Shown one piece after another: positions 23,098 through 48,052 of a stretch of 64,000 nt of DNA. The number at the start of each line of letters is the position of its first letter. The first letter of the stretch is position 1. The translations under genes and the position numbers were made by a program. Under the pieces are notes generated by a model. That model was not told the DNA's origin. It made no database searches and saw nothing but the letters and a program-made list of their open reading frames with translations. This stretch comes from Gammaproteobacteria bacterium UBA3067 (lineage in GTDB: Bacteria > Pseudomonadota > Gammaproteobacteria > Pseudomonadales > UBA3067), in contig DFBZ01000147.1 of NCBI GenBank assembly GCA_002366835.1, positions 13,649 through 77,648 on the forward strand. Reading direction: 5' to 3'.

Positions 23098-23528
23098 AAT
23101 TACTCTCCTTTTGTGTTCTCTTTCACCGTCATGGTAGAACACCGCGTTGCCGAGGTGCCCCCATATAGATCCGGACGTACGGAATTACCGCATCCGTCTC
23201 TTCAATAGTATCGTTGCCCGTGTAAAGCACAGAACCTCAATACCAATCCAAAGCAATGAGTCGTTTGCTCACGCGCATGGGTTGAATTCCGAAATATCTT
23301 AACATCTCTTTCACCCCTGACTAGGTGCAACTACGCCGCTGACTTCTTCGGTTTAACCATTTGTACAGGCTATGAAATATATGGCTAAGACAAAAAATAT
23401 AAAGACAGCCACTATATTATGAATAAAACAATTGGGCGTAATAGATAAAAGAGCAGTAACTACCGGGTAGTCATCAACAAAAAAACAAAGAAAGCATCAC
23501 ACCACAAGCAGGTGATCTACCTTTTAGC

Positions 23529-23640: not shown

Positions 23641-23967
23641 TCCCTGAATTGCTCTAGAGAAGAAAGCGTACCCGCTGCATAAAAAAAGTACTTCTGGAAG
23701 TGAGAAGCGGAATCAATCCAGTTTTCAGGCTGATTACCTAAACGGCGCAAAATTGGCGGCAAATGGCTGTAGATAGCCCCGCGCTTATCTTCTCGAAGAG
23801 TGCCCCCGCCCTATCCACCAACTCAAAATAATCCTGCCGCGTAAATGGGATCCCTAATCAAGTTCGCTCTCAAGTGGCGAAATAAAGCCCCTACAATTTT
23901 ATCCAGACCTGTATTGCTCCTTCCGCTATAATGCCGTCCCCAAGATTATTCGCTCGTAGCCAGAACC

Positions 23968-25170
23968 ATGAACAACGACCTTCAACGCCTACAACCCTAC
24001 CCTTTTGAAAAGCTCAACGCGCTGAAAGCTACGGTGTCACCACCGAGTGGGCTTTCTCCCATTTTGCTATCCATTGGTGAACCCAAGCACGCTGCACCTG
24101 CCCATGTATTGCAGGCACTCAGTGATGCCTTGCCCAAAGTCGCTCACTACCCCGCCACAAAGGGTTCGCCAGAATTGCGAGAGAGTATCGCAAGTTGGCT
24201 CATACAACGTTTTAACCTTGCTGCTGATTCGATAGATTCTGAACGGCATGTTTTGCCCGTTAGTGGCACTCGCGAGGCCCTGTTCGCCTTTGCGCAAGCG
24301 GTGGTCAACCGTGAGGCTGTGGCAAGTGGGGCGAAGCCCTATATCATGATGCCCAACCCGTTTTACCAGATCTACGAAGGGGCGACCTTTTTGGCAGGCG
24401 CAACGCCCTTTTACTTGCCAAACAAAGGCATACAGCCGGATTTCGACAGTATTGACGAGGAAAGCTGGTCGAAGTGCCAGCTACTGTTTATCTGCTCGCC
24501 CTACAACCCCACTGGCGCGGTGATGCAGTTTGAAACCTTGAAGAAACTAATTGCTCTGGCCGATAAGCATGACTTTATCATTGCCAGTGACGAATGTTAT
24601 TCCGAGATTTATTTAGATGAATCCCAGCCGCCCATGGGCTTGCTAGAAGCCTGCGCAAAACTTGGTCGCCATCAATATGAACGCTGCGTGGTGTTTCACA
24701 GCCTGTCGAAACGCTCAAACCTACCGGGCTTGCGCTCGGGATTTGTGGCCGGTGATGCCAGCGTTCTGAAGGACTTTTTGCTCTATCGCACTTACCACGG
24801 TTGCGCGATGCCTTTGCATCATCAAATCGCCAGCATTCACGCCTGGAATGATGAAAGTCACGTTATCGAAAACCGCACTCTTTACCGAGAGAAATTTGCG
24901 CAATTTCAAGCGATAGCGGGGCAGCAGTTGTCGTTGGAGATACCGGAAGGCGGTTTTTATTTTTGGGCACAAACGCCCATTGATGATATCGAGTTTGCAC
25001 AAAAACTTTACGTGAGAGAAAACATTACCGTTTTGCCGGGCCAATACCTTTCTCGGGAAATAGACGGCGAGAACCCTGGCAAAAATCGCATTCGCATGGC
25101 CTTGGTTGCCAGCACCGAAGAGTGCGCTGAAGCGGCACAACGCATTCAACGTTTTATGAGTACGATATAA
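23968..25170 (+). CDS. dapC: Class I/II aminotransferase, probable succinyldiaminopimelate transaminase
   Basis: 400 aa with the PLP-lysine region SLSKRSNLPGLRSG. Clustered with dapD and dapE. A TATAAT hexamer at 23927-23932 could be its -10 element. Confidence 0.75.
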   Translation: MNNDLQRLQPYPFEKLNALKATVSPPSGLSPILLSIGEPKHAAPAHVLQALSDALPKVAHYPATKGSPELRESIASWLIQRFNLAADSIDSERHVLPVSGTREALFAFAQAVVNREAVASGAKPYIMMPNPFYQIYEGATFLAGATPFYLPNKGIQPDFDSIDEESWSKCQLLFICSPYNPTGAVMQFETLKKLIALADKHDFIIASDECYSEIYLDESQPPMGLLEACAKLGRHQYERCVVFHSLSKRSNLPGLRSGFVAGDASVLKDFLLYRTYHGCAMPLHHQIASIHAWNDESHVIENRTLYREKFAQFQAIAGQQLSLEIPEGGFYFWAQTPIDDIEFAQKLYVRENITVLPGQYLSREIDGENPGKNRIRMALVASTEECAEAAQRIQRFMSTI

Positions 25171-25172
25171 GC

Positions 25173-25517
25173 ATGGTGACACTTTACGGCATTAAAAATT
25201 GCGATACCGTCAAAAAAGCCCGGCGCTGGCTTGAACAGGCAGGCATCGATTACCAGTTTCATGATTTTCGCAGCGATGGCTTGGAAGCACATCAGGTGCA
25301 GAGCTGGGTGGATGTTTTAGGCTGGGAAAGCATACTGAATAAACGCAGCACAACTTGGCGTAAGCTGCCCGAAGACACTAAAAACTCCCTCGGTGAAAAT
25401 AACCTTGTGAGCCTGCTTTTGGAGCAGCCCACCCTTATTAAACGCCCAGTGCTCGACAAGCAAGGCCAGATTCACCTTGGCTTTAAAGAAACCGATTACC
25501 AGCAAATTTTCAGCTAA
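25173..25517 (+). CDS. ArsC/Spx-family protein (YffB-like)
   Basis: 114 aa. MVTLYGIKNCDTVKKARRWLEQAGIDYQFHDFR is typical of the YffB subgroup. Confidence 0.85.
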   Translation: MVTLYGIKNCDTVKKARRWLEQAGIDYQFHDFRSDGLEAHQVQSWVDVLGWESILNKRSTTWRKLPEDTKNSLGENNLVSLLLEQPTLIKRPVLDKQGQIHLGFKETDYQQIFS

Positions 25518-25531
25518 TTTAGGAGCAAAAC

Positions 25532-26566
25532 ATGACCGACTCATCCTTTTTCTGTGTGGCCTTTGGTGTTGGAACACAAAACGCTAAAAACGAATGGCTA
25601 GAAGTGTATTACCCCCAGCCACTTTTCCAGCCAGCAAAATCCCTGGTGGAAAAACTCGGCGCCATCGTGGGGTACGAAGGCGGCAACGCGGCCATTAGCA
25701 TCGAAACAGAACAAGTTAGCGCCCTTTGCAAGGAGCTTGAGGCAGCCAAGATCGACACAGCATTGGTGGCACCTTTAGCGCAAAGTCAGCAGCCTTTAGT
25801 GTTAACCTTTATTGAAAAAGACAGCGCTCTTAGCAGCACCCCTGAAGCGTATTTAAAGCTACATTTAATCTCCCTACGCCATGTTAAACCCCACGGCACT
25901 AACTTAAGCGGCATTTTCCCTTTGCTGCCCAACGTGGCTTGGACTAATCAAGGCGCAGTCGATCTGACAGAACTTCCACAGCGACAACTAGATTCCCGTT
26001 TGAAAGGTGAGCTACTGGAAGTCAGCTCGGTGGACAAATTCCCCAAAATGACGAACTACGTGGTGCCAACTGGGGTGCGCATTGCCCATACTGCCCGCGT
26101 GCGCTTAGGGGCTTATGTTGGCGAAGGCACCACGGTTATGCACGAAGGCTTTATAAACTTTAATGCCGGTACCGAAGGCACCAGTATGATAGAAGGCCGT
26201 ATTTCGGCTGGTGTAGTGGTTGGCGAAGGCAGCGACCTTGGTGGCGGTTGCAGCACTATGGGCACCTTATCAGGCGGCAACAACGTGATTATTTCCGTAG
26301 GCAAAAATTGCTTATTGGGGGCTAACGCGGGCTTGGGCATTCCCCTTGGCGACCGTTGCACCATCGAAGCCGGTTTATACATCACTGCAGGCTCTAAAGT
26401 GAATTTGCTCGATGATAAAAACCAGTTAGTGAGCACCCTAAAAGCCAGCGAGTTGGCTGGAAAGTCTGACTTACTTTTCCGTCGTAACTCCCAAACTGGC
26501 ACCATCGAGTGTAAAGCTAACCGCAGCGCTATCGCACTCAATGAAGAACTACACGCGCATAACTAA
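25532..26566 (+). CDS. dapD: 2,3,4,5-tetrahydropyridine-2,6-dicarboxylate N-succinyltransferase (long form)
   Basis: 344 aa with C-terminal left-handed beta-helix hexapeptide repeats ([14 protein letters not shown].., [16 protein letters not shown]..). Sits between dapC and dapE. Confidence 0.88.
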
Positions 26567-26579
26567 CGGCCGCTACAGC

Positions 26580-27401
26580 ATGAAAAGTAAATCGCAGTAC
26601 GAATTTAACAAACTGCAAAAGAAAATACGCCGGGAAACCGGCAACGCCATCGTTGACTACAACATGATTGAAGACAACGATGTGGTTATGGTGTGCTTGT
26701 CTGGCGGTAAAGATTCTTACACCCTGCTTGATATGCTGATGAGCCTGCAGCGTTCTGCGCCCATCAGCTTTGAACTGATCGCGGTCAATCTTGATCAAAA
26801 GCAACCGGGTTTTCCAGAAGAGGTACTGCCGGAATACCTCAGCAAGCTCGGTGTCAACTACCATATTTTGGAGAAAGACACCTATAGCATCGTGCAGGAA
26901 AAGCTACCAGAAGGGAAAACCCAGTGCTCGCTGTGTTCGCGTCTGCGGCGTGGCTCACTTTATGGTTTCGCTGAAAAAATCGGTGCCACCAAGATTGCTC
27001 TGGGCCACCACCGTGACGATATTCTCGAAACCCTGTTTCTGAATTTGTTCTACGGTGGAAAGATGAAGGGAATGCCGCCCAAATTGCTTAGCGATGATAG
27101 GAAAAACATCGTGATCCGCCCCCTCGCCTACTGCCGCGAAAAGGATATTAGCCGTTATTCCGAAGAAAAAGGCTTCCCCATTATTCCCTGCACTTTGTGT
27201 GGTAGCCAGGCAAACTTGCAGCGCCAGGTCATAAAAGAAATGATGCAAGACTGGGATCAACAGCACCCAGGTCGATTAGAAACCATGTTCACGGCAATGC
27301 AAAACGTTACGCCTTCGCACATGGCTGACCGTAAACTCTTCGATTTTGAAACACTCACCATCAGCGGGCGCGATCGCTTGCCTGTTCTGGAAGTAAAATA
27401 A
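26580..27401 (+). CDS. ttcA: tRNA 2-thiocytidine(32) synthetase TtcA
   Basis: [13 protein letters not shown]-terminus as in E. coli TtcA, PP-loop SGGKDS, and Cys pairs [10 protein letters not shown] and CTLCGSQ. An alternative start at 26541 overlaps dapD. Confidence 0.9.
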
Positions 27402-28559
<1,158 letters not shown>

Positions 28560-28573
28560 GTGATACAAACGTC

Positions 28574-29467
28574 ATGAGCCAAACTGTTAATAGCCCCTTG
28601 GTTTGCCCTGTTTGCAGAGAGGCTCTACAAAATAATGATCGCAGCTATTATTGCCCTCAGGGCCACAGTTTTGATATTGCCCGCCAAGGCTATGTAAACT
28701 TATTACTCAGCCACCAGCGGCGCAGCAAACACCCTGGCGATAGCAAGGAGATGATCAAGGCCCGCCAGGCATTCTTGGCTGAAGGACATTATTTACCTAT
28801 TTATACGGCGCTTGAACAACTCGCGCTCAAACACCTAAAGAACGTTGAAACTAACTCCCCCTTGCAAGTGGCTGATCTCGGCTGCGGTGAAGGCTACTAT
28901 ACCCACCAGCTGGATAAAGCATTACGCAAAGTACTGACTGAGCATAAAAATCCGCTTCAAACATGGGGAATTGATATTTCAAAAGACGCCATTATCAATG
29001 CCTGCAAGCATAACTCTAAGGTTAACTGGCTCATTGCGAACCTGAGTCAAACGCCTTTTGCTGACCACAGCATGGATATGATAACCGTCTTATTTTGCCC
29101 CATAAATGCCCAGGAACTCGTAAGATTATTAAAACCCGGCGGCATTTTTATTTTTGTAAAACCAGATGCTAAGCATTTAATACAACTGCGCGAACATATC
29201 TACTCAGATATTAAAGGCCAAGATGAAAACACGGCAATAGAAAAAACCACTGACAACCCAGTTCATCACCCCCAACTAAAGCTGATTGATACCCAAGCAC
29301 TTTTCCATTCCATAAGTCTGGATACACCAGAGTCCATTCAAGCGCTTTTCAAAATGACCCCTCACTATTGGCGAAGTAAACCTGAAAAGCACAAGAAAAT
29401 AGAACAACTGAGTCAATTAGACACCGATATATCGCTAAGCTTCTTTTGCTACCAAAGAGAGCATTAA
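28574..29467 (+). CDS. rlmA: 23S rRNA (guanine745-N1)-methyltransferase
   Basis: Zn-ribbon LVCPVCREAL..YYCPQGHSFDIARQGYVNLL, the SAM motif DLGCGEGYYT, and MTPHYWRSKPE. Collinear with E. coli RlmA. Confidence 0.85.
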   Translation: MSQTVNSPLVCPVCREALQNNDRSYYCPQGHSFDIARQGYVNLLLSHQRRSKHPGDSKEMIKARQAFLAEGHYLPIYTALEQLALKHLKNVETNSPLQVADLGCGEGYYTHQLDKALRKVLTEHKNPLQTWGIDISKDAIINACKHNSKVNWLIANLSQTPFADHSMDMITVLFCPINAQELVRLLKPGGIFIFVKPDAKHLIQLREHIYSDIKGQDENTAIEKTTDNPVHHPQLKLIDTQALFHSISLDTPESIQALFKMTPHYWRSKPEKHKKIEQLSQLDTDISLSFFCYQREH

Positions 29468-29766
29468 GCCTCAGACGGTGCCTTAAGCTCCAAAGCCAGC
29501 GCATGCAGCCCTGCTTCAAACTCTTCAGATAACACCCCGTAAACCATCTGATGGCGCTTTACAGCCGACACGCCTTCAAACTTCTCGGCAACCGCCTTCA
29601 CTCGAAAGTGCGTTTCTTTGCTGTCTGTATCCAAATGCCCGGCGTGAAGGTGGCTTTCGTTAATCACCTCTAAGGCCGATGGATCTATGCCATTAGCAAT
29701 TTTTTGCGCAATAATCTCTTCCATACCCATATTAAAAATCCGCCTAAATAATATTGTATTGATCAT
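29464..29766 (-). CDS. bolA: BolA-family protein
   Basis: EVINESHLHAGH....THFRVKAVAEKFEGVSAVKRHQMVYGVL parallels E. coli BolA. Start chosen at the Met preceded by GAGG; the longest ORF reaches 29835. Confidence 0.75.
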   Translation of the reverse strand: MINTILFRRIFNMGMEEIIAQKIANGIDPSALEVINESHLHAGHLDTDSKETHFRVKAVAEKFEGVSAVKRHQMVYGVLSEEFEAGLHALALELKAPSEA

Positions 29767-30256
29767 CCTAGAAACCTCAGTTGCACCCCGAGGGCATAAA
29801 GGTGCGAAAAAGATGTGCAAGATATTGGCGTGCATAGGAAATTTTCAAAGTTCGTACTCACCTTATTGGGCGTAAGCGCCGTATACGGCTGGAGATGAGA
29901 ACTTTTTAAAATTTTCTAGGTGCGGCAAGAGCTCGCCTAAAAGCGCCTACTGTCGGTGTGCAGAATTTCGTACTCCAGCTGCGGTTTCTAGGACCAATGT
30001 GCAGCCAAGGTTACGCAGAAGTCAGCAAAGACTCAAGCGCCGTTTAAGCAAGGAGAATACCTTGGTTAAAAAACAACTTTTTCAAGCCAACCCTTCAGTA
30101 AATATTGATACTAGACATCTTCAGCACAAGCCGGTTACAAACTAAACCCGATTCACCCTCCAGATTTCGAATTATGGGTCTATCTTTAAAGAGTTAGTCA
30201 TATAACCTGGCATGACAGCTTTATAACAATCAGTAAACTTTAATGATTAGTCATCT

Positions 30257-30574
30257 ATGAACCAACTAAGAGTAAACGACATTACAGTCGGCATGGTCTG
30301 CGCCGCTGATATATTAAATAAGAATGGCCAGCTTCTTATCCCTGCAAACACATCAATTGAAGAGAAACACCTGCGATTATTAAAAGCATGGGGCTTCACT
30401 GAACTCCCTATTATTAGTAGCAGTGAACCTGCCGCAAACCAAAGTACTACAGCCACCCCTCCAAGCACTGAGAGCTTAGAGTGTCGCTTTAGACATAACA
30501 CACCTTCCCTGCTCGCTGTCATTGAGATGAAAAAAATACTTGGCTCTGGCAAGTTTCTGAGGGGCGAAATGTGA
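30257..30574 (+). CDS. Small hypothetical protein with a DUF3391-like N-terminal region (the domain usually found at the N-terminus of HD-GYP proteins)
   Basis: 105 aa. LRVNDITVGMVCAADILNKNGQLLIPANTSIEEKHLRLLKAWG resembles that domain. Its stop overlaps the GTG start of the next gene (GTGA). Confidence 0.45.
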   Translation: MNQLRVNDITVGMVCAADILNKNGQLLIPANTSIEEKHLRLLKAWGFTELPIISSSEPAANQSTTATPPSTESLECRFRHNTPSLLAVIEMKKILGSGKFLRGEM

Positions 30575-31419
30575 GTAACTCTTTGGCGGTTCAAACACTT
30601 TTGGATGAGACTCAGTACCTCGTATCGCCACCCAAAGTTTACATGAAACTAAAAGCAGCCCTCGAAGACCCAAGCACAGACTTCGGTGACTTAGCGCAGC
30701 TTATTAGCACGGATGTTTCCATTGCAGCTCGCCTACTCAAGGTTGCAAATAGCGCCATGTTCAACTTTCCCGGACAAGTTAGCAGCATCGATCGAGCGCT
30801 TTCCCTAATAGGTACCCAGCAAACGGTAGATCTGATATTAGCTACTGAAGTACTAAAATCAATTTCCGGAATTAAAAGCGATATATTTTCCGTTGAAGAA
30901 TTTTCAAAACACAGCCTAGGATGCGCCATTTCTGCCCGAGTACTTGCCCAGTATAAAGGCGAGCATGATATTGAAGCCCACTTTGTCAATGGGCTGCTAC
31001 ACGATACCGGACGTTTACTGTTATTTGTAAAGTATCCAGACGCTCAAAAAGCGCTTCTTGAAACGAACAAAAACGAATCAGCCCCACTTCGAGCACTCGA
31101 AACACAGCAGTATGGAATCAGCCATGAGGAAATTGGCGCCGCTTTATTTAGATCTTGGGGCTTGCCCGAGGCACTAGTGGAATGCACTGCGTACCATCAC
31201 ACCCCCATGTCCTCAGAACACCACAGTTTTTCAGCTGCGATAGTACACGTTGCAGACTGGATCACACACGCCATCCCCATGGGGGGCAATGGAGAGAACT
31301 TCGTACCCGCACTAGATGAAAGTGCATGGCTATCACTAGGTATTCCTGAAAGTTCTCTGGAAATGATAATGACGGAAATAAATAAACAATATAATTCAGC
31401 TCTTAGCCTGTTACTTTAG
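30571..31419 (+). CDS. HDOD domain-containing protein
   Basis: 282 aa. LPSPPKVYMKL-type N-terminus (VSPPKVYMKLKAAL), IDRALSLIG, GLLHDTGRLLL, HEEIGAALFRSWGLP. Confidence 0.85.
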   Translation: MSNSLAVQTLLDETQYLVSPPKVYMKLKAALEDPSTDFGDLAQLISTDVSIAARLLKVANSAMFNFPGQVSSIDRALSLIGTQQTVDLILATEVLKSISGIKSDIFSVEEFSKHSLGCAISARVLAQYKGEHDIEAHFVNGLLHDTGRLLLFVKYPDAQKALLETNKNESAPLRALETQQYGISHEEIGAALFRSWGLPEALVECTAYHHTPMSSEHHSFSAAIVHVADWITHAIPMGGNGENFVPALDESAWLSLGIPESSLEMIMTEINKQYNSALSLLL

Positions 31420-31504
31420 CCGAGGTATTTTTTAAAGCAACAAGGTAAATATTCGTCTAAAGCAAACATCAATCCAATCATTCAGAACTTATTGTGTAGT
31501 AGTT

Positions 31505-33454
31505 ATGGAAGACAGAAAAGAAAACAGGCAGCTTCTAAATACAGGTTTAGAAGCACGCTTAAGCCACCTGGAAGAAACCAATCGCTGGCACCTGCACACC
31601 CTTAACGTTATAAGTGCCCTGTGCAGCCTTTACCAAAAGCCAAATATAGGCAAAGACCCAGCCCATCTTATAAGAGAAACTGTCCCCTTTATATTACAAG
31701 TCACCCCCTTTTCAACGGTGGGTTTCTGCTCCCTCTCTGCTTCCAAAAGTGATATTGAGTTGGACTACGTTAATAAGCAAGAAGAAGAGAGTAATCTACG
31801 CAATATTCTTGAGCATTTAATCGCATCGGGGGAGTTTGCATGGTCTTTACACAGCCATATTCCACAAGTGCATCACGTCAATAAACAAACCCTTGTTCTC
31901 GCATCTATCGCAACACCAACTCGCATTCGTGGCATTTTTATTGGACAGATTTCTCCTAATGCGGCTTTTAAGGAGCACCATAAAAAGGGTTTGCATGCCA
32001 TTATACAACACTGCGCCTACGCCCTAGAAAGCAATGAACTACAACACGTGATAAAGGGCCAAAATGAACATCTGATAAAGTCATTTGTTTCTCAAAATGC
32101 CAAACTTAAGGCTCAAAATAATGTAGACCAGCTCACCCACCTTCCTAATCGACAACATTTTCAAAGCGTAGCTGAGCAACACCTAGAGCACGCGACATCC
32201 ACCGGCGAAAAGTTGGCCATTGTCTTACTTAATTTAGATTTATTTAAAAGGGTGAATGAAAGTCTCGGGCATAATACTGGAGACCAGCTACTTCAGACCA
32301 TCAGTCAGCGTTTGCTACAAAGCCTGAAAAAGGCAGAAATAAATAGCACCACACAGGATTGCCATAGCGCCTACACCCTGAGTCATTTTGGTGCCGATGA
32401 ATTCTGTATTTTACTGACCGATATATGCTCCCTGGAACAAATTGAAAAAGTAATACTTCGGCTCAGCGCTGACTTTTCCAAACCCCTTACATTCGATACT
32501 GGAGAAATAATACAAACCTTTAGCGCCGGCATCAGCCTGTTTCCAGACAATGCAAAAACCGCAGAGGAGCTACTTCAATTTGCAGATATTGCATTAGACC
32601 GAGCGAAAGAAAAGGGGCGAAACCAACATATTTTTTATACTAACGATGAGAAATTCCATGTAGTGAATCAGCTGGGCTTATCAAGAAACTTACACAGGGC
32701 GCTGGAAAAAAATGAGTTTGTTCTTTATTTTCAACCGCAAATAAACACCCTAACAGATAAAGTTACCGGTATCGAAGCCCTTATCCGCTGGACAGATCAC
32801 ACGGGCCACTCAACCCCCCCCGACAAATTCATCCCGTTAGCAGAAGACACCGGTTTAATCATCCCTATTGGCCGTTGGGTTATCGAAGAAGCATGTAAAA
32901 GTCTGAAACACCTACAAGACCTGGGTTTCGTGGATATTCCAATATCTATCAATATCGCAGCTCAGCATTTTTCTGAGCATAATTTTGTCGAGGTACTTTC
33001 CAGTACGGTTGAAAAATACCAACTCAATACAGAAATGATTGAACTGGAGTTAACCGAGAGAACGGTCATGGGTGACATCAAAGCCACCGTTTCGACTTTG
33101 ATGGAGTTACGCAACGCGGGCTATAAAATCGCCATTGATGACTTTGGCACCGGTTATTCCTCCTTGAGTTACATCAAACATCTGCCGATAGATCGATTAA
33201 AAATAGACAAATCATTTATTGCAGACATCCCTGCCGACAAGGGAAGCATCGCAATTGTAAAAGCGATTACTCAACTTGCCCATGGTATCAATATGGATGT
33301 GATTGCAGAGGGGGTCGAAAACCTTACGCAGGTGAATTTGATTAACTCACTGGGATGCAGTGAAGCCCAGGGTTACTTATACAGCAAACCCCTTGGCATT
33401 GAAGAACTCATTGGTTTTTTGAAAAAACCTAACAAGCGCGTAGAAAAAGCGTAA
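31505..33454 (+). CDS. Sensor-GGDEF-EAL protein (variant GADEF site, intact EAL)
   Basis: 649 aa. DQLTHLPNR..HFGADEFCILL marks the GGDEF domain with GADEF. The EAL set is complete: EALIRW, ELTE, DDFGTGYSSL, KIDKSF, EGVE, QGY. Confidence 0.9.
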   Translation: MEDRKENRQLLNTGLEARLSHLEETNRWHLHTLNVISALCSLYQKPNIGKDPAHLIRETVPFILQVTPFSTVGFCSLSASKSDIELDYVNKQEEESNLRNILEHLIASGEFAWSLHSHIPQVHHVNKQTLVLASIATPTRIRGIFIGQISPNAAFKEHHKKGLHAIIQHCAYALESNELQHVIKGQNEHLIKSFVSQNAKLKAQNNVDQLTHLPNRQHFQSVAEQHLEHATSTGEKLAIVLLNLDLFKRVNESLGHNTGDQLLQTISQRLLQSLKKAEINSTTQDCHSAYTLSHFGADEFCILLTDICSLEQIEKVILRLSADFSKPLTFDTGEIIQTFSAGISLFPDNAKTAEELLQFADIALDRAKEKGRNQHIFYTNDEKFHVVNQLGLSRNLHRALEKNEFVLYFQPQINTLTDKVTGIEALIRWTDHTGHSTPPDKFIPLAEDTGLIIPIGRWVIEEACKSLKHLQDLGFVDIPISINIAAQHFSEHNFVEVLSSTVEKYQLNTEMIELELTERTVMGDIKATVSTLMELRNAGYKIAIDDFGTGYSSLSYIKHLPIDRLKIDKSFIADIPADKGSIAIVKAITQLAHGINMDVIAEGVENLTQVNLINSLGCSEAQGYLYSKPLGIEELIGFLKKPNKRVEKA

Positions 33455-33525
33455 AACATTTACTGCTCGAGTGGCGGTTTTTCAACACTGTGGGTAGCTA
33501 TTCAACAAACCCCGTACCCATTCGT

Positions 33526-34074
33526 CTAATAAGTCAGCCGTAACCCAAAGTGCAAGCCGTTATCAATACGCCCTTTACCACCGTTATCCATTTTGATTCT
33601 GATGTGTCGATATCCGACATAGATATTTGCCTGACTCAGTATCTGATACTCTAGCCGCATCGCGGTTTCAATGTATCGCTTTACATCATCGAACGATACG
33701 ACATCTGGCCCATAATAAAGCTGCCCGCCTAAACCCAAACCTGGAAACGCTGGCAGCGCATAGTGAAAAAAACCACCCAGTGCCATTCCCAGGCCATCAA
33801 CATTCTTAGCATCAAAAGCGTAAAGGTGACCACCTATACCGACGTAACTTCCATCCGCAAGGCTTTCGATTACCGACACACCCGCAGTAATTAGGTCGCG
33901 ATCATCCTCATGGTGCAAGCCGGAAAGAGAAAGGTTCAGCCCGGATTCATTAATAGGCCCCCTCACGGCTAGACGAATAGCCTCATCACGTAAATTTATA
34001 TCTAAAGAGGATGCCTGAACGCTAAAACACGCACATATAGCCAGAATGGAACATGCTACTGATAAAAATCTCAT
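33526..34074 (-). CDS. Small outer-membrane beta-barrel protein, YfaZ-like
   Basis: 182 aa with a signal peptide (..CFSVQA), Gly/aromatic-rich strands and a C-terminal ..GLRLTY. The family assignment is tentative. Confidence 0.5.
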   Translation of the reverse strand: MRFLSVACSILAICACFSVQASSLDINLRDEAIRLAVRGPINESGLNLSLSGLHHEDDRDLITAGVSVIESLADGSYVGIGGHLYAFDAKNVDGLGMALGGFFHYALPAFPGLGLGGQLYYGPDVVSFDDVKRYIETAMRLEYQILSQANIYVGYRHIRIKMDNGGKGRIDNGLHFGLRLTY

Positions 34075-34153
34075 TAAAAATTCAACCCTTAATCTATGGA
34101 TACTAACGATGCCGAAGCATAATTAATTTACCGAAAAGTTTCCAGTAGCAGAT

Positions 34154-34510
34154 CTATTTACCGAGAAAGGATTCTTTAAGGGATTCCATCCAGATTATGG
34201 CGTCATGTGCCGACAGTTGCAGATATTCCCAAACGCGCGGGCCATTACCGGTACTATACAAAAGTACGGAGGTTCCAAGGGCGAGTAAAACGACGCCACC
34301 GAGAACAAAAGGAAAGCCAGCTTTGCTCTGGCCATCGCCCATTGTCGCAACGTCCTGCTTTGATGATTGAACAGGCTTCCGTCCTATCTTAATGGCCTTT
34401 AAATCTGCCAACACCTCAAAAAAGCCGCTATAACGCGCTTCCGGATTCAACTGCATTATTTTGAATAATGACATTCTGAAGCGGCTTTGGGAACGCATCA
34501 AACTGCGCAT
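34154..34510 (-). CDS. C-terminal continuation of the kinase gene in a shifted frame (end of kinase lobe, TM anchor, short tail)
   Basis: From ..KIMQLNPEARYSGFFEVLADL (kinase subdomain XI) through a TM helix (FPFVLGGVVLLALGTSVLLY). Only the part downstream of about 34468 looks genuinely coding. Confidence 0.55.
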   Translation of the reverse strand: MRSLMRSQSRFRMSLFKIMQLNPEARYSGFFEVLADLKAIKIGRKPVQSSKQDVATMGDGQSKAGFPFVLGGVVLLALGTSVLLYSTGNGPRVWEYLQLSAHDAIIWMESLKESFLGK

Positions 34511-35957
34511 TTGTACAGAGCTTTCCCGACTGCCACTCTGGGGGCTGCTGACTGGCCGTTAGCATTTGGTAAAACAATACGCCAGCGGCATAGACATCGG
34601 TCTTGACTGATTTCTCTTCCCCCAGGTGGTTGTACCAGTTCCCCCCCTCTTGGCCACCACCGTAATGCTCATCGAAACCAAAGTCTGATATTTTTGCCTG
34701 GCCTTTTGAAGTAAATAATATATTCCTAGGTCGCAGATTTCCGTGAATAATTTGATTCCGGTGAGCGTAATCCATTGCCTCACAGATTTGGGTGGCAATG
34801 GAAATAAAACTTTTCCAGCCAAAAGGCTTAATCAGGCGATCCTGTAAACAGCCGCCCTTTAGGTATTCCATAACGGAAATAAAGACCCGATCATTTTTAG
34901 AAACACCTTTTACCGTAACGATATTTGGGTGGTGCAGCTTATGCAGTAGCTTGCTCTCACGAAAACCAGCACTACTGTTGGTACGCTTTTTTATGACCAA
35001 TAAATCATGCTGCACTTTATCTTCAAATAGATAAACGGCACCAAATTCGTCCTCCTTGATGACGTCTAGCAGCGAAAACTTATCCTCCGCCTTGGAAACC
35101 GTCTTTTTTGCGCGTTCTTTTTGTGCTGGTGCTAAATGGGCTCCGTGCATCACCTTGAGCAACAGGTTTTTTATTTCACTGGCGGAGCGGGGCCGCTGCG
35201 ATTCATCGGGGCATAAACAACGCTCAATGACTTTATCAATAGCCTTGGGAATATTTGGGTTCTGGGTGGAGGGAAGTTCAAAACGCCCCAGCGGCAATAT
35301 ACCGGTTACCAATTCATAAAATAGTACGCCAAAGGCATAGAGATCACTTTGAACTGAAGTGTTGTCGGCCGACGCGTGTATTTCAGGTGCCATATAGGCA
35401 GCGGTCCCCATAACATCACCCACCTGGGTGTGGTGATCTTCATTTTTATTAGATGCTTGTGTTTTTTCGCAAAAGTGCGCAATACCGAAATCCAGTACAT
35501 AGGCGTGATTTTGCCGATCCATCAAAATATTTGCAGGTTTAATATCCCGATGAATCACGCCGTTATCATGAGCGTAGGCCAGAGCCTTACAAATCTGAAC
35601 GGCGATATGGATACGCTGGGATAACTTAAGATCGCCCTTTTCAATTAAGTCCTTAAGGTCGGCTCCCTTAACGTATTCCATCACAAAATAGGGTTGCCCC
35701 TTAGAGGTAATACCTCTATCAATAACATCGATAATATTAGGATGATTTAGCCGAGCGATGATAAGAGATTCCCGCTCGAAGCGCGACTTAACATCCTTTC
35801 GATCCAAAAGTGTCTTCTTGAGAACTTTTAATGCAACGGGGCGTTCTAAAGAGGTTTGCACCCCTTTATACACAGTGGCCATTCCACCGTGACCAATTCT
35901 TTTTTTGAACCTGATAACCGCCGAGATGCATAAACCTTCACTATCCATAAAGGGCAT
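34428..35957 (-). CDS. Hanks-type Ser/Thr protein kinase with tandem kinase and pseudokinase domains (frame interrupted near its 3' end)
   Basis: Domain 1 motifs: IGHGGMATVY, ALKVL, HRDIKPANIL, LDFG, YMAPE. Domain 2 motifs: LVIKK, HGNLRPRNIL (Asp replaced by Asn), SDFG. Confidence 0.85.
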   Translation of the reverse strand: MPFMDSEGLCISAVIRFKKRIGHGGMATVYKGVQTSLERPVALKVLKKTLLDRKDVKSRFERESLIIARLNHPNIIDVIDRGITSKGQPYFVMEYVKGADLKDLIEKGDLKLSQRIHIAVQICKALAYAHDNGVIHRDIKPANILMDRQNHAYVLDFGIAHFCEKTQASNKNEDHHTQVGDVMGTAAYMAPEIHASADNTSVQSDLYAFGVLFYELVTGILPLGRFELPSTQNPNIPKAIDKVIERCLCPDESQRPRSASEIKNLLLKVMHGAHLAPAQKERAKKTVSKAEDKFSLLDVIKEDEFGAVYLFEDKVQHDLLVIKKRTNSSAGFRESKLLHKLHHPNIVTVKGVSKNDRVFISVMEYLKGGCLQDRLIKPFGWKSFISIATQICEAMDYAHRNQIIHGNLRPRNILFTSKGQAKISDFGFDEHYGGGQEGGNWYNHLGEEKSVKTDVYAAGVLFYQMLTASQQPPEWQSGKLCTNAQFDAFPKPLQNVIIQNNAVESGSAL

Positions 35958-36100
35958 AAAACGCCCACAAAAATACCCCTACTTTTGAGTATAGGCGAAG
36001 GACATGTGAAGGAAGGATTAAAAAATTTTCTAAACGGGAGGGGAACGAAAGGCCAACAAGAACGACAGAAGCTCTTGTCGGCTTATCACTTAGGAGCTTA

Positions 36101-37561
36101 TTAGCCTAAGAATTTAGTAAAATAGTTCATCACTTTGAGGGCCTTATCGGGATATGGTGCCTTCACATACTTGGAAGGTGCCATACGCTTGTTCTGAAAC
36201 AAAACACCCTTTTTATGTGAGAACTCCTCAAAGCCATCAAAGCCGTGATAGCGCCCTAAACCACTTGGCCCACTTCCACCAAAAGGCAGGTTTTCATGCG
36301 CAATATGCAGCATCGTATCGTTCACACAGGCACCGCCAGAAACAGTCTGACTTAAGACTTCCTGCGCTGTATCCATATTTTCATCGAAATAATACAAGGC
36401 AAGCGGACGCGGCCCATCATTGACATATTGAATTGCTTCACTGATGTGCTTGTAGGTTTTCACGGGTAAAACTGGCCCAAAAATCTCCTGCTGCATCACC
36501 GCCATTTCGCTATTCACACCGGTAATAATAGTGGGGGGAACCACACGACTGCCCTCTGGCAGCTGTTCGTTTTGGGGGTTCACTTGAATAACGTTCGCGC
36601 CCTTGTTCCTCGCATCTTCAATCAAGCCCAACACACGCTGGTGATGGCGATCGTTGATGATCCAGGTAATATCCTGGTTGTTGACCAAAGAAGGGTAACG
36701 CTCTGCATAACGAGCCGTAATATAGTTAACGAACTCCTGCTCTTTTTCTTCGGGTAGCAATATATAGTCTGGCGCGATACACGTTTGCCCTGAATTTACG
36801 CATTTACCCATTAATAAGCGATCTACCGCTTTTTCTATCGGGTAGTTACGGCTGATAATGACGGGCGACTTACCACCCATTTCAAGGGTAACAGGAGTCA
36901 GGTTTTTGGCTGCAGCTTGCATGACTTTTTGGCCAATGGAGGTGCCGCCTGTGAACATAAGGTGGTTAAATGGCAGCTCTGCGAATTGAGCCGCTACAGT
37001 CACGTCGCCAGTGATGACTGTTACATGGTCTTCGTCGAAATTATTGGCGATTAGTTCCTTAGCGACTTCGCCCACTGCGGGCGTCAAATCGGGTGGCTTA
37101 ATCATGCAGTGATTACCCGCACCTAACACACCTACCAGGGGTGAAAAAATCATCGCAACGGGATAGTTCCAAGCACCCAGGATGCCCACAACCCCTTTGG
37201 GTTGGTACATGATTTGCCCTTTGGCACCGGCTGCCTGAAAACTGAACGGTGCTTTTTGAGGTTTCATCCACTTCTTCAGCTTGCCTTTATGGGCCGCTGC
37301 TTCTCCCGCCACTGCCAACACTTCACTGGCCAGGGTTTCGTGGGGAGAGCGGTGGCCAAAGTCACTTTGTGCCGCTTCAACCAACTGATCCTTATACTGG
37401 ATCACAGCTTTCTGTAAACGAGTGAGATGCTCCTTACGCTGATCACAAGTCGGTGCGCCACGCCGCTTAAACGAGGCCTTTTGGCGATTCAACGTTTCTA
37501 AATAGGGGTTATCTTGCAGCTGGCCTGATACACTGGCCAACACGGGTTGTGGACTAGACAT
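36101..37561 (-). CDS. NAD(P)-dependent aldehyde dehydrogenase (coniferyl-aldehyde dehydrogenase-like)
   Basis: 486 aa with LEMGGKSP and the catalytic Cys in SGQTCIAPDY. The N-terminal region is typical of the CalB-like subgroup. Confidence 0.88.
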   Translation of the reverse strand: MSSPQPVLASVSGQLQDNPYLETLNRQKASFKRRGAPTCDQRKEHLTRLQKAVIQYKDQLVEAAQSDFGHRSPHETLASEVLAVAGEAAAHKGKLKKWMKPQKAPFSFQAAGAKGQIMYQPKGVVGILGAWNYPVAMIFSPLVGVLGAGNHCMIKPPDLTPAVGEVAKELIANNFDEDHVTVITGDVTVAAQFAELPFNHLMFTGGTSIGQKVMQAAAKNLTPVTLEMGGKSPVIISRNYPIEKAVDRLLMGKCVNSGQTCIAPDYILLPEEKEQEFVNYITARYAERYPSLVNNQDITWIINDRHHQRVLGLIEDARNKGANVIQVNPQNEQLPEGSRVVPPTIITGVNSEMAVMQQEIFGPVLPVKTYKHISEAIQYVNDGPRPLALYYFDENMDTAQEVLSQTVSGGACVNDTMLHIAHENLPFGGSGPSGLGRYHGFDGFEEFSHKKGVLFQNKRMAPSKYVKAPYPDKALKVMNYFTKFLG

Positions 37562-38845: not shown

Positions 38846-38996
38846 TCCTCACAGGAAGAATAGTAGGCCTATAATGTGCTTGTTCAGCCATAAATATAAA
38901 CAATAATGAACAACTCACAAGCATAGAGACCTTTATATGAAGGATTATTTTAAAGCCGTGCAACGATTTCGTATCCGCATGCACAAGGCGAATCAA

Positions 38997-39995
38997 ATGC
39001 ATTGCAAAAAGCTTCTGCTATCGTCACTTTTTCTTTTGATTGGCAGCCAAGTCTTACACGCGAAGTCTTGCCCTGAAAACGATACGCTGGACCCAACAAG
39101 CAAAATTCACTCGAACCTTTGGGGCAGCACACTTAACAACAACCGCTTTCAGCCTGGTGAAAATGCAGGCATTCGTGCTGCCGATGTACCCCGTTTGAAA
39201 CTGAAGTGGGCCTACTATTTACCACCACGTTTTCCCGGCACAAGTGAGTTGCGCTCCCAGCCAGCGGTTACCGAAGATACCTTATACCTCGGGACACAAG
39301 ATGGCACCGTTTACGCCCTCGACACAGAGTCCGGCTGCACTCGATGGACTTACAAAAATGATATCCAAGTTCGAAGCGGTATCATACTAAGCGACATCGA
39401 CAGCAATGGCCCCCGTATGCTGTTTTTTGGTGATGACGATGGCTTCGTTACCGCGCTTAATGCCACTAGCGGAAAAAGGCTGTGGAAAACAGAAATGGAC
39501 CCTCATCCCAATGCCTTGATTACTGCGGCCCCCACCTTATATAAAGACCAACTCTACGTCTCTGTTTCTTCTCTCGAAGTCATTACAGCCATGAACCCTC
39601 TCTATAACTGCTGCACATTCCGTGGCTCAGTGGCGCGCGTGGATGCTCGCACAGGGAAGATAGCCTGGCAAACCTACACCACCCCCAAGTCGGAGGAGAC
39701 CGGGAAAAATAAGCTGGGAGTGCAAATGTGGGGGCCATCTGGGGCACCAGTCTGGAATACGCCTTCCATCGATATTAAACGCAACGCCCTTTACGTGGGC
39801 ACCGGGGAAAACTATTCAACACCCGCCTCAAAGAAAATGGATTTGATCTCGACGTTGGTGCCAACACCCTATTATTTAATATGGCCGATGGCAGTGATGA
39901 GCGCTATATCTACGCCCCCAACTCCGACTACGAACTCAGCTTCCTCAATATTATCGAGGCACGACGCCCTCCCGGGGAGAAAAGCCCCAGCTTAA
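38997..39995 (+). pseudogene. PQQ-type beta-propeller dehydrogenase-like protein, N-terminal reading frame (frameshifted)
   Basis: Signal peptide MHCKKLLLSSLFLLIGSQVLHA. Repeats GTVYALDTESGCTRW and GFVTALNATSGKRLW, plus a vicinal CC in YNCCTFRGSVARVDARTGKIAWQ. Sensible sequence ends at ..GENYSTPASKK, after which the frame reads as nonsense. Confidence 0.6.
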
Positions 39996-40354
39996 ATGCA
40001 CTTGATCCAAAAACGGGAAAAATTGTCTGGAAATATACGGAAAAATTCAGCTGCTCAGAGCCAGAAGACTGCGACGATGGCTTTTCTGCACCACCAAGCA
40101 TTATCCCCGGCGTGGTTTTTGCCGGCACCATGCTTGGAAAGCTCTATGCCTTTAACCGTGACTCAGGAGGAGTTATCTGGGAATATGACACCACTCAAAA
40201 TGTAAACACAGTGAGCGGTGACGAAGGCCACGGGGGCTCTATTGATGTAGATGGTGCGGTTATTGCGAACGGTCAGCTTTATGTTCATTCCGGATATGGG
40301 AGAATGGGCAAAGGTGGTAATGTACTTCTAGTTTTTTCAATCGACGGGAAATAA
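39836..40354 (+). pseudogene. Same PQQ-type beta-propeller gene, C-terminal reading frame
   Basis: NGFDLDVGANTLLF.., LNALDPKTGKIVWKY, GKLYAFNRDSGGVIWEY, and ends ..LLVFSIDGK. This frame is offset from the upstream part. The switch occurs at the A-rich run 39831-39838. Confidence 0.6.
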
Positions 40355-47327: not shown

Positions 47328-48052
47328 AAACAGCTAAGCTCACCGTCCTCTTGGTAAATACAGATGTGGCCAGAAACATCACAACCGCTTGGTTATACTA
47401 ACTTTCTCATGCTTACAAGGCGCAGGTTCCTAGTTTATTCAAAGCCCCCCGCCTGTAAGCCAGAATAATTTTAAAACTCACGAAAACCATCTTAGCAGCC
47501 AGGCTGGAAAAGTCATTGAAGAAGCCTGCGTCAATCAATAAAAATAACACAAGCCAGCTTATGGCGTAGGCCAAACACCAGCAAGCCCACTCCCTGCTCT
47601 TTGATATAAGCAGCAACCCAAGCCCGGCTAGCGTGGCGAGTAAGTATTGTCTCCGTATTTCTAGCCTGTTAGTCTAACGACCCAATAGAGCGCGCCCGCC
47701 CCAATAAAGCGCACCCGCCCGAAAGGCTATTACTAGCTGGACCAATAACACAAAATACACAGCCGAGCGCGCTCAAATAGTCGAGGAAAAAGTCCGACAA
47801 TTCCCCAAACATGACACCAGGTCACATATTTCTGTCTTGCTACAAGGCTAGTCTGGTTATTTAATAGACTGAGATAATTCGAACACCTGTGAATATTTTA
47901 AATACAAGCCACTTCCTTCAACGTTAAATCAGAAACTTAAGCAACGGGTTTCCGAGAAATATGACGGCTCAGAGCTTATCTACCTATCTAGGAACTAGAG
48001 AGGTTTGATCTTTCGTCGTTGAAACAGATTTTTTTAATGGAGCCCAAGCAGT

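What the first reader, a model, noticed from the sequence alone, without database searches (positions are those of the whole stretch)
34154..35957. Membrane-anchored tandem kinase-pseudokinase gene split by a single-nucleotide frameshift
ORF 34428..35957 (-) encodes two consecutive Hanks-type kinase domains. Domain 1 has every catalytic motif: IGHGGMATVY, ALKVL, HRDIKPANIL, DFG, YMAPE. Domain 2 keeps the fold, a VIKK lysine and DFG. However, it reads HGNLRPRNIL where HRDxKxxN is expected, so the catalytic Asp is replaced by Asn, and its G-loop is degenerate. I therefore predict it is a pseudokinase. The ORF stops in the middle of kinase subdomain XI. The overlapping ORF 34154..34510 carries the missing end of the domain in another frame (..KIMQLNPEARYSGFFEVLADL..). 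That is followed by a linker, one TM helix (FPFVLGGVVLLALGTSVLLY) and a tail of about 35 aa. Removing one T from the reverse-strand ATTATT at 34464-34469 produces a seamless ..PLQNVIIKIMQLNPEARY... The locus is therefore either a sequencing error, a very recent pseudogene, or a recoding site. A kinase-pseudokinase tandem with a C-terminal anchor is an unusual bacterial architecture, reminiscent of JAK kinases and plant tandem-kinase proteins. I do not recognise it as a described bacterial family.
Basis: partly seen in the sequence, partly recalled or inferred. Interest (0 to 1): 0.7.

Follow-up and report, generated by a model that had tools for sequence, protein, structure and literature searches.

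The report
Broken tandem kinase–pseudokinase gene
This is a recently inactivated copy, carrying two separate one-base insertions rather than one, of a widespread but unstudied bacterial membrane protein that joins an active protein kinase to a conserved catalytically dead kinase-like domain; the breakage is ordinary gene decay, and the intact protein family is the modestly interesting part.

Summary
ORFs 34428..35957(-) and 34154..34510(-) together encode two Hanks-type kinase domains, one TM helix and a short tail. They are split by a one-base insertion at 34464-34469.

An A6 run has become A7 at 35900-35906, ten codons after the true start (ATG 35929-35931, with a conserved GAAGG ribosome-binding site). 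The ORF's first 19 residues are therefore leader sequence or out of frame.

Eight orthologues at 91-94% identity, and more than 100 distant ones, are intact single ORFs of about 590 aa. Both lesions are base-identical in three other assemblies. None of 11 syntenic neighbour genes has a frame-breaking indel. A nearby PQQ-propeller gene carries two large internal deletions. Branch-specific substitutions still look selected (33 synonymous, 13 non-synonymous).

Best reading: a very recent true pseudogene (about 0.8). It is unlikely to be a sequencing error or recoding.

Domain 2 reads HGNLRPxN in 110 of 117 relatives and keeps the β3 Lys, catalytic-loop Asn and DFG Asp. It is a conserved pseudokinase. 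It fits none of the seven named bacterial pseudokinase families and reaches no NCBIfam cut-off. Some relatives lie beside FHA and PP2C genes. The C-terminal anchor is the usual bacterial arrangement.

The parts
36052..36082 (-). Terminator-like hairpin (12-bp stem) between the upstream aldehyde dehydrogenase gene and the kinase gene. It suggests the kinase gene is its own transcription unit.
   Evidence: This is a consensus scan only.
35935..35939 (-). Shine-Dalgarno GAAGG, three bases (TTT) upstream of the native start codon.
   Evidence: AGTGAAGG is invariant in the window and in three intact orthologue loci. Coordinates.
35929..35931 (-). Native start codon ATG (MHLGGYQVQK...), homologous to the orthologues' MQLGGYQVQKRIGHGG.
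35900..35906 (-). Frameshift 1: an A7 run where intact orthologues have A6 (a +1 insertion). The native frame then terminates at 35866-35868, after 21 codons.
35142..35900 (-). Kinase domain 1 (active type). Contains the G-loop, Lys (ALKVL), αC Glu, HRDIKPANIL, DFG and the activation-loop T..GT..YMAPE.
   Evidence: Pfam Pkinase stretch 17-262. All catalytic residues are invariant in 117 relatives. Best structural matches are PknB, Stk1 and PknA.
34391..35081 (-). Kinase domain 2 (pseudokinase). Contains a degenerate G-loop, LLVIKKR, HGNLRPRNIL, SDFGFDEHY, NWY and the subdomain XI Arg. Frameshift 2 interrupts it.
   Evidence: Pkinase 101 bits alone. Motif frequencies. The AF2 model of the orthologue has pLDDT above 90 over most of the domain. 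PDB sequence matches.
34464..34469 (-). Frameshift 2: ATTATT. The extra base is most simply the A at 34466; orthologues read GTCATT-TTTAAAATG. The upstream frame then stops at TAG 34428-34430.
34259..34315 (-). Single transmembrane helix FPFVLGGVVLLALGTSVLL. It now lies in the detached downstream frame.
   Evidence: It is the most hydrophobic 19-residue window in the repaired protein, mean Kyte-Doolittle 2.25. AF2 predicts a helix at 539-559 in the orthologue.
34157..34258 (-). C-terminal tail of 34 aa, predicted to be a single helix and presumably periplasmic.
   Evidence: AF2 helix at 563-589 in the orthologue. Topology is inferred from Lys/Arg residues on the N-terminal side of the TM helix (sequence).
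34154..35957 (-). The biologically meaningful gene runs from 34154 to 35931.

Best explanation
The locus is a very recently inactivated pseudogene of a conserved bacterial gene.

The intact gene, about 591 aa in orthologues, encodes three parts in order. First is an N-terminal active Hanks-type Ser/Thr kinase. Second is a conserved pseudokinase domain of 'HGN' type, in which the HRD Asp is replaced by Asn and the catalytic-loop Lys by Arg, while the β3 Lys, αC Glu, catalytic-loop Asn and DFG Asp are kept. It is therefore probably nucleotide-binding but not catalytic. Third is a linker, one C-terminal TM helix and a short helical tail.

In this genome two independent single-base insertions broke the gene. 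An A6-to-A7 expansion ten codons after the start uncouples the native ribosome-binding site and ATG from the kinase. An A insertion in subdomain XI of the pseudokinase removes its last helix, the TM anchor and the tail.

Shown here: the lesions themselves, their absence from all orthologues, and their reproducibility across assemblies.

Inferred: loss of function, and the mechanism of the intact protein. I infer that in the intact protein the pseudokinase regulates or scaffolds the neighbouring active kinase within the same molecule, at the inner face of the membrane. I also infer that the output goes to FHA-domain proteins and is reversed by a PP2C phosphatase in those genomes where these genes are adjacent.
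For: Orthologues are intact:
- Eight relatives at 91-94% identity are 591 aa and single-frame. More than 100 further relatives are about 580-640 aa.
- DNA alignment against three intact loci pinpoints both +1 insertions.

The lesions are reproducible:
- Both lie in 100%-identical DNA from ENA ERZ27237536, JGI 3300001749 and Logan SRR5324170.
- Five contigs carry the exact truncated product. One is 102 kb, and a second falls in the 50-200 kb size class.
- A SPAdes contig labelled 452x coverage matches the window at 99.987% elsewhere.

The damage is specific to this gene:
- Over 12 kb of synteny with L001, the only uncompensated indels in any of 12 genes are these two.

The genome really does decay:
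- The PQQ-propeller gene at 38937-40354 has two internal deletions of about 41 and 44 aa relative to an intact 557-aa orthologue.

The event is recent:
- dN/dS against L001 is 0.092, with neighbours at 0.04-0.20.
- The window's terminal branch has 33 synonymous and 13 non-synonymous changes, similar to intact orthologues.
- The repaired frames contain no stop codon.

The family is conserved:
- Domain 1 catalytic residues are invariant. In domain 2, H396, N403 and D416 are each 117/117, G397 and R400 are 116, N398 is 110, K314 is 111 and E325 is 107.
- The AF2 model of the orthologue has pLDDT 86.5 and pTM 0.80.
- FHA and/or PP2C genes are adjacent in Deferrisoma camini, L095 and L009.
Against: - No sign of relaxed selection is visible yet, which is also what a sequencing error or a still-functional gene would give.
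- Site 1 is a homopolymer, a classic error or slippage site.
- I could not inspect reads, and I could not show that the concordant assemblies come from independent read sets. Only L089, which differs by 3 SNPs, clearly does, and the fetched part of it does not cover the kinase.
- A 506-509-aa soluble kinase-pseudokinase could still be translated from upstream ATGs in the leader.
- The proposed allosteric role of domain 2 rests on analogy only. I had no access to the model coordinates or the PAE.
- FHA/PP2C linkage is absent from the window's own clade and from L094.
Confidence: 0.8

Rival explanations
1. Sequencing or assembly error: the real genome carries an intact 591-aa gene, and the two extra bases are consensus artefacts.
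For: - Site 1 is an A-homopolymer.
- The repaired gene shows purifying selection and has no further lesion.
- The several 100%-identical assemblies might all derive from one read set, which I could not check.
Against: - Identical sequence comes from at least four pipelines: megahit k141, JGI, Logan and the window's source.
- One related contig name states 452x coverage.
- There are no frame-breaking indels in 11 neighbouring genes over 10 kb. Two errors landing in one 1.8-kb gene would therefore be an unlikely coincidence.
- Site 2 is an A inserted into a T run, not a homopolymer length error.
- A gene 3 kb away has deletions of more than 100 bp, which cannot be base-calling errors.
Confidence: 0.07
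2. Recoding or phase variation: full-length protein is still made by +1 ribosomal frameshifting or transcriptional slippage, or the A-run acts as a reversible switch.
For: - Both sites need the same +1 correction.
- Site 1 is CAA AAA AAG, where tRNA-Lys can slip and where RNA polymerase can slip on A7 (established knowledge of slippery A-runs).
- The downstream frames remain open.
Against: - Two separate low-efficiency events would both be required.
- Neither site has a stop or a rare codon in the A-site, nor a prfB-like context. Site 2 (AUU AUU CAA) is not a known shift-prone sequence (sequence; established knowledge).
- None of 8 close and more than 100 distant orthologues carries either shift, whereas programmed sites are normally conserved.
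- A7 is shorter than the runs of about 9 or more that give efficient transcriptional slippage (my own knowledge).
- Site 2 cannot revert by simple repeat slippage.
Confidence: 0.05
3. A truncated but still useful product: a soluble 506-509-aa kinase-pseudokinase is translated from leader ATGs (35957 or 35948). It has lost its membrane anchor, and a separate small TM peptide may also be made.
For: - The kinase frame is open upstream to ATGs in the leader, giving an uninterrupted ORF that contains all of domain 1 and most of domain 2.
- The terminal-branch substitutions look selected.
Against: - The leader ATGs are also present in intact orthologues, where they are out of frame, so they are not an adaptation.
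- I could see no convincing ribosome-binding site before them, whereas the conserved GAAGG serves the native ATG (sequence).
- The product replaces the β1-strand residues with foreign sequence.
- It lacks the last helix of domain 2, including the subdomain XI Arg that is conserved in 98 of 117 relatives.
Confidence: 0.08

Closest known systems
Bacterial Hanks-type Ser/Thr kinases with a C-terminal TM helix (PknB/Stk1/PknA-like)
   Same: - Domain 1 has all the Hanks motifs.
- The best structural matches are PknB, Stk1, PknA, PknE and PknI.
- A kinase followed by a C-terminal TM helix is the commonest bacterial architecture.
- Some family members sit beside FHA and PP2C genes, as in classical PknB-type loci (my own knowledge).
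   Different: - A second, catalytically dead kinase domain lies between the kinase and the TM helix.
- There is no PASTA or other extracytoplasmic sensor, only a tail of about 34 aa.
- The NCBIfam PknB_PASTA_kin score of 372 is below its cut-off of 450.
JAK-family JH2-JH1 pseudokinase-kinase tandem (TYK2, JAK1)
   Same: - An active kinase and a pseudokinase are on one chain.
- The pseudokinase catalytic loop reads H-G-N. TYK2 JH2 'LVHGNVCGRNILL' aligns with 'IIHGNLRPRNILF'.
- TYK2 (4OLI) and JAK1 (7T6F) are the top PDB sequence hits for domain 2.
- The β3 Lys and the catalytic-loop Asn are retained.
   Different: - The order is reversed, with the kinase first here.
- There are no FERM or SH2 domains.
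- Domain 1 is PknB-like Ser/Thr type, not a tyrosine kinase.
- The resemblance is probably convergent. The scores are only modestly better than those to bacterial StkP.
Plant tandem kinase proteins (e.g. WTK1/Yr15, kinase-pseudokinase)
   Same: The kinase-then-pseudokinase order on one polypeptide (PMC6170490, listed).
   Different: - By my recollection the plant proteins are cytosolic immune receptors without a TM anchor and arose from plant kinase families.
- No homology beyond the generic kinase fold was found or tested here.
Named bacterial pseudokinase families ActPs1-3, GLW, CP1, DYD, DLHK (bSTK atlas and review)
   Same: Each is a conserved bacterial Pkinase-homologous domain with a degraded catalytic motif.
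   Different: - All seven families include loss of the VAIK Lys. This domain keeps Lys (111/117) and the DFG Asp (117/117) and changes only the HRD Asp.
- Neither paper's text mentions a tandem kinase arrangement.

Membership tests
Hanks-type protein kinase (Pfam PF00069), domain 1 | Scores above the Pkinase gathering threshold | tested here: met
   Whole repaired protein scores 271.9 bits against a cut-off of 31.7. Best stretch is residues 17-262.
Hanks-type protein kinase (Pfam PF00069), domain 1 | Complete catalytic motif set: G-loop, β3 Lys, αC Glu, HRD Asp, catalytic-loop Asn, DFG Asp, APE | tested here: met
   IGHGGMATVY, ALKVL, E54, HRDIKPAN, DFG and YMAPE are present. K35, E54, D129, N134, D147 and E183 are invariant in 117 relatives.
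Hanks-type protein kinase (Pfam PF00069), domain 1 | Phosphotransferase activity | not testable with these tools
   Requires biochemistry on an intact orthologue.
Pseudokinase (kinase fold lacking a catalytic-triad residue), domain 2 | Protein-kinase fold | tested here: met
   Pkinase scores 101.3 bits on domain 2 alone. It is 34% identical to domain 1, E 2e-25. AF2 pLDDT is mostly above 90 across residues 285-510 of the orthologue.
Pseudokinase (kinase fold lacking a catalytic-triad residue), domain 2 | Loss of at least one of VAIK-Lys, HRD-Asp or DFG-Asp, conserved in the family | tested here: met
   The HRD position reads HGN. Asn occurs in 110 of 117 relatives and Asp in 7. Lys and the DFG Asp are retained.
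Pseudokinase (kinase fold lacking a catalytic-triad residue), domain 2 | No or negligible catalytic activity | not testable with these tools
   Requires an assay. JAK2 JH2, which also has HGN, is reported to keep weak activity (my own knowledge).
Seven named bacterial pseudokinase families (ActPs1-3, GLW, CP1, DYD, DLHK) | Substitution of the VAIK Lys, which occurs in all seven families | tested here: not met
   Lys is kept in the window (LLVIKKR) and in 111 of 117 relatives. The criterion is taken from the paper read.
JAK-type pseudokinase-kinase tandem | Pseudokinase N-terminal to the active tyrosine kinase, with FERM-SH2 upstream | tested here: not met
   The order here is kinase then pseudokinase. 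No FERM or SH2 domain is hit in Pfam.
JAK-type pseudokinase-kinase tandem | HGN in place of HRD in the pseudokinase catalytic loop | tested here: met
   HMMER alignment to TYK2 JH2 and JAK1 JH2.
PASTA kinase PknB/Stk1 (NCBIfam NF033483) | Score at or above the curated cut-off, with extracellular PASTA repeats | tested here: not met
   Score of 372 bits is below the cut-off of 450, and only the kinase part matches. There is no domain after the TM helix.
Programmed +1 ribosomal frameshift (prfB-like) | Shift site conserved among orthologues | tested here: not met
   All orthologues examined are in a single frame at both sites.
Programmed +1 ribosomal frameshift (prfB-like) | Slippery P-site codon followed by a stop or hungry codon, with an upstream SD-like stimulator | tested here: not met
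   Site 1 is CAA AAA AAG AAU and site 2 is AUU AUU CAA. Neither has a stop or rare codon in the A-site (sequence reading).
Pseudogene | Frame-disrupting lesion relative to intact orthologues, reproducible in the DNA | tested here: met
   Two +1 insertions, identical in ENA, JGI and Logan assemblies.
Pseudogene | Relaxed selection after inactivation | tested here: inconclusive
   The terminal-branch N/S count ratio of 0.39 is like that of intact orthologues (0.28 and 0.50). This is compatible only with a very recent event.
Anti-phage defence kinases (PADLOC PD-T4-6, mad6) | Specific model match plus the partner genes of the system | tested here: inconclusive
   Only generic kinase-domain matches were found. 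No defence-type neighbours appear.

The most novel reading that the evidence does not exclude
The intact family is an undescribed class of bacterial signalling proteins: tail-anchored tandem kinase-pseudokinases. An 'HGN' pseudokinase domain that binds nucleotide but is catalytically dead allosterically controls the adjacent PknB-like kinase. This would be a convergent bacterial counterpart of JAK JH2-JH1 and of plant tandem kinase proteins. The family is found across Gammaproteobacteria, Thermodesulfobacteriota, Deferrisoma and Eisenbacteria, and is often wired to FHA and PP2C partners.
Probability: 0.4. Interest if true: 0.55.

Novelty: new variant of a known kind. Interest (0 to 1): 0.35.

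Why it matters
For this genome the result is mundane. Annotators should mark 34154-35931 as a pseudogene with two frameshifts, not as a 509-aa kinase plus a hypothetical protein. Together with the decayed PQQ gene, it points to ongoing gene loss in this lineage.

The wider value lies in the family. Bacterial pseudokinases are little studied, and the current classifications I could read list seven families, none of them a tandem kinase-pseudokinase. A conserved pair in which the dead domain keeps its nucleotide-binding residues and sits directly next to a canonical PknB-like kinase would be a simple, tractable system. It could be used to ask how pseudokinases regulate kinases within one molecule. 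It would also provide an independent evolutionary example of the JAK-like 'HGN' solution.

Tried and rejected
- **Single-frameshift model.** Rejected. DNA alignment to L001, L091 and L087 shows a second +1 insertion at the A-run.
- **General low-quality assembly.** Rejected for the neighbourhood. All other within-gene indels against L001 are compensated pairs within a few bases, which are alignment artefacts.
- **-1 frameshifting on A_AAA_AAG.** The heptamer is in phase, but the -1 frame is the wrong one. A +1 shift is needed (sequence reasoning).
- **Defence-system kinase.** PADLOC gave only generic kinase hits and there is no supporting context.
- **Specific curated family.** No NCBIfam model reaches its cut-off.
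- **Sample identification.** Searching papers for SRR5324170, 3300001749, ERZ778604 and JGI24025J20009 found nothing.
- **GTDB genome scan.** It did not return the window's own genome. The nearest hits are Pseudomonadales and Gammaproteobacteria MAGs at 74% identity or less.
- **AFDB fold search.** The library was unavailable.
- **Inter-domain interface.** Model coordinates and PAE are not exposed, so it could not be analysed.
- **Literature on bacterial tandem kinase-pseudokinases.** Searches returned only plant TKPs and unrelated systems.
- **Other features.** There are no tRNA or Rfam elements in the window, and no promoter-like consensus near the gene.
Full report
**1. What is in the sequence**

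On the minus strand, the ORF listing gives a 509-aa ORF at 34428..35957 and an overlapping 118-aa ORF at 34154..34510.

Pfam Pkinase matches two separate stretches of the repaired protein (E 7e-81). The second half on its own scores 101 bits against a gathering cut-off of 31.7. The 118-aa ORF alone matches no family.

Deleting one base in ATTATT (34464-34469) fuses the two frames.

**2. Relatives are single-frame, and there is a second frameshift**

A search with the repaired protein found hundreds of proteins of about 580-640 aa covering both kinase domains. In 110 of the 120 listed, an HRDxKPxN motif is followed by HGNx[RK]PxN.

All begin MQLGGYQVQKRIGHGG and read NVIFKMMQL at the junction.

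Their N-terminus does not match the window ORF's MPFMDSEGLCISAVIRFKK. A syntenic contig, L001, is 86-88% identical in DNA across window 23942-36091. Against it, the only uncompensated indels in any of 12 genes are two +1 insertions in the kinase gene.

Multiple DNA alignments locate them precisely:
- At site 1 the window reads GTTCAAAAAAAGAATT where L091 reads GTTC-AAAAAAGAATT, so A6 has become A7 at 35900-35906.
- At site 2 the window reads GTCATTATTCAAAATAATG where the orthologues read GTCATT-TTTAAAATGATG, so an extra A sits at 34466.

The native start is ATG 35929-35931, preceded by an invariant AGTGAAGG ribosome-binding site. From that start the frame now ends after 21 codons. The upstream ATGs that open the 509-aa ORF lie in the 5' leader. 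They are equally present, out of frame, in the intact orthologues.

**3. Error, pseudogene or recoding**

Evidence that the lesions are real:
- DNA 100% identical to the window, including both lesions, occurs in an ENA megahit assembly (ERZ27237536), a JGI assembly (3300001749) and a Logan assembly of SRR5324170.
- Five contigs carry the exact truncated product. One is 102 kb, and a second falls in the 50-200 kb size class.
- A SPAdes contig labelled 452x coverage matches another part of the window with 3 mismatches in 22.6 kb.
- The eleven neighbouring genes have no frame-breaking indels.
- Three kilobases away, the PQQ-propeller gene at 38937-40354 is split. Compared with an intact 557-aa orthologue it lacks two internal blocks of about 41 and 44 aa. 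Lesions of that size cannot be base-calling errors, so this genome does carry decaying genes.

Evidence against recoding:
- Both sites would need a +1 shift.
- Neither site has a stop or a rare codon in the A-site.
- Site 2 is not a known slippery sequence.
- No orthologue shares either shift.

Evidence that the inactivation is very recent:
- dN/dS against L001 is 0.092, within the range of the neighbours (0.04-0.20).
- Changes unique to the window's branch are 33 synonymous and 13 non-synonymous, similar to the intact orthologues.
- The repaired frames contain no stop codon.

I therefore rate the readings as follows: recent true pseudogene about 0.8, sequencing error about 0.07, recoding or phase variation about 0.05, and a still-useful truncated product about 0.08. 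I could not inspect reads. I also could not prove that the concordant assemblies use independent read sets.

**4. What the intact protein is**

*Domain 1* is a canonical Hanks kinase. K35, E54, H127, D129, K131, N134, D147-F148-G149, P182 and E183 are invariant in 117 relatives. The activation-loop Thr168 and Thr176 are nearly invariant.

*Domain 2* is 34% identical to domain 1 (E 2e-25) and is tightly conserved in a non-catalytic state:
- H396, N403 and D416 (the DFG Asp) are each present in 117 of 117.
- G397 and R400 are each present in 116.
- N398 is present in 110, with Asp in the other 7.
- K314 is present in 111 and E325 in 107.
- The G-loop is degenerate, and family-specific DEHY and NWY motifs are present.

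Domain 2 thus keeps the residues that hold nucleotide and metal but lacks the catalytic base.

An AlphaFold2 model of the 91%-identical orthologue P0001 is confident, with pLDDT 86.5 and pTM 0.80. The only low-confidence regions are the domain 1 activation loop, a short loop in domain 2, and the linker before the TM helix. A helix at 539-559 (the TM helix) is followed by a helix at 563-589.

The best structural matches are PknB, Stk1, PknA, PknE and PknI. The only strongly hydrophobic segment is FPFVLGGVVLLALGTSVLL.

The best PDB sequence matches for domain 2 are TYK2 (JH2-JH1 construct, 4OLI) and JAK1. Their JH2 'HGN' loops align to HGNLRPRN. Bacterial StkP follows a few orders of magnitude behind.

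**5. Distribution and context**

At 50% clustering, 122 representatives match domain 2 at E ≤ 1e-30. About 60-70 of them are proteins of 540-640 aa with two kinase stretches, the second starting near residue 280.

Named sources include Deferrisoma camini, Thermodesulfobacteriota, Candidatus Eisenbacteria, and Pseudomonadales and Gammaproteobacteria MAGs.

In the window's clade the gene sits between an aldehyde dehydrogenase gene and YfaZ, GGDEF-EAL and HDOD genes. In more distant members:
- D. camini has FHA, PP2C and FHA-zinc-ribbon genes immediately downstream.
- L095 has PP2C and a double-FHA gene immediately upstream.
- L009 has an FHA gene immediately upstream.
- L094 has none of these.

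**6. Comparison with what is known**

The bSTK atlas preprint and the 2025 review describe seven bacterial pseudokinase families. All involve loss of the VAIK Lys, and neither text mentions a tandem kinase arrangement. This domain keeps the Lys, so it is not one of those families.

The atlas also states that a kinase followed by a C-terminal TM helix is the commonest bacterial architecture, seen in 25 of 42 families. The anchor is therefore not unusual.

No NCBIfam model reaches its cut-off. PADLOC gives only generic kinase matches. Literature searches for bacterial tandem kinase-pseudokinases returned only plant tandem kinases and unrelated systems.

The resemblance to JAK covers the HGN motif and the pairing of a kinase with a pseudokinase. 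It does not amount to membership: the domain order is reversed, there is no FERM-SH2, and domain 1 is PknB-like.

**7. Mechanism (inferred)**

In intact members, a cytoplasmic PknB-like kinase is tethered to the inner membrane through a C-terminal anchor, with no sensor domain. The adjacent pseudokinase probably binds nucleotide and acts as an intramolecular regulator or scaffold of domain 1. In many genomes the output probably goes to FHA-domain proteins and is reset by PP2C. None of this was tested.

In the window's organism the gene is broken at both ends and is most likely non-functional.

**8. Verdict**

The finding is real and was mostly read correctly. The frameshift story is ordinary recent gene decay, with two hits rather than one. 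The protein family is widespread, conserved and apparently uncharacterised, which gives it moderate interest. Interest 0.35; novelty: new variant of a known kind.

Noticed in passing
window 38937-40354 (+): A PQQ/BamB-like β-propeller gene is split into 352-aa and 157-aa ORFs. Against an intact 557-aa orthologue (P0149) it has two internal deletions of about 41 aa and 44 aa, so it is a genuine pseudogene. The gene is absent altogether from the 73%-identity relative L087.
   Followed up: yes
window 35940-35990 (-) and the same region of L001 and L091: The 5' leader of the kinase gene, including two out-of-frame ATGs (ATGCCCTTTATGGAT), is conserved in L001 and L091 but not in the more distant L087. 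These may form a small upstream ORF or a regulatory leader. In the window they create the spurious N-terminus of the 509-aa ORF.
   Followed up: partly
window 22312-23142 (-): A protein with several ankyrin repeats (Pfam Ank_2, E 9e-51). A related contig name states 452x coverage. Together with the two pseudogenes, this hints at a host-associated or otherwise sample-dominant lineage. The sample's origin could not be identified.
   Followed up: no
window 47328-48052: A 726-bp stretch with no ORF of 90 aa or more. The 2-kb composition window that includes it has an unusually high AT skew (0.30). It contains a 19-bp unit repeated twice at 47681-47720, and there is no Rfam or tRNA hit. It may be a decayed gene or a regulatory region.
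   Followed up: no
L085 9920-11835; L095 4151-5963; L009 7102-7797: Distant members of the tandem-kinase family lie directly beside FHA-domain and PP2C phosphatase genes. This linkage is missing from the window's clade, where the conserved neighbours are aldehyde dehydrogenase, YfaZ, GGDEF-EAL and HDOD.
   Followed up: partly
family alignment, column of repaired residue N398: Seven of 117 family members have Asp (HGD) instead of Asn at the catalytic-base position of domain 2. Some members may therefore retain or have regained activity.
   Followed up: no
window 36052-36082 (-): A 12-bp-stem terminator-like hairpin lies between the aldehyde dehydrogenase stop and the kinase leader. No sigma-70-like promoter consensus was found anywhere in 33400-36300.
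   Followed up: no
window 30257-33454 and 10250-10984: Several cyclic-di-GMP-related genes surround the locus: an HDOD protein, a GGDEF-EAL protein of 649 aa and a stand-alone EAL protein of 244 aa. The HDOD/GGDEF-EAL/YfaZ/kinase order is conserved in L001, L087 and L091.
   Followed up: no
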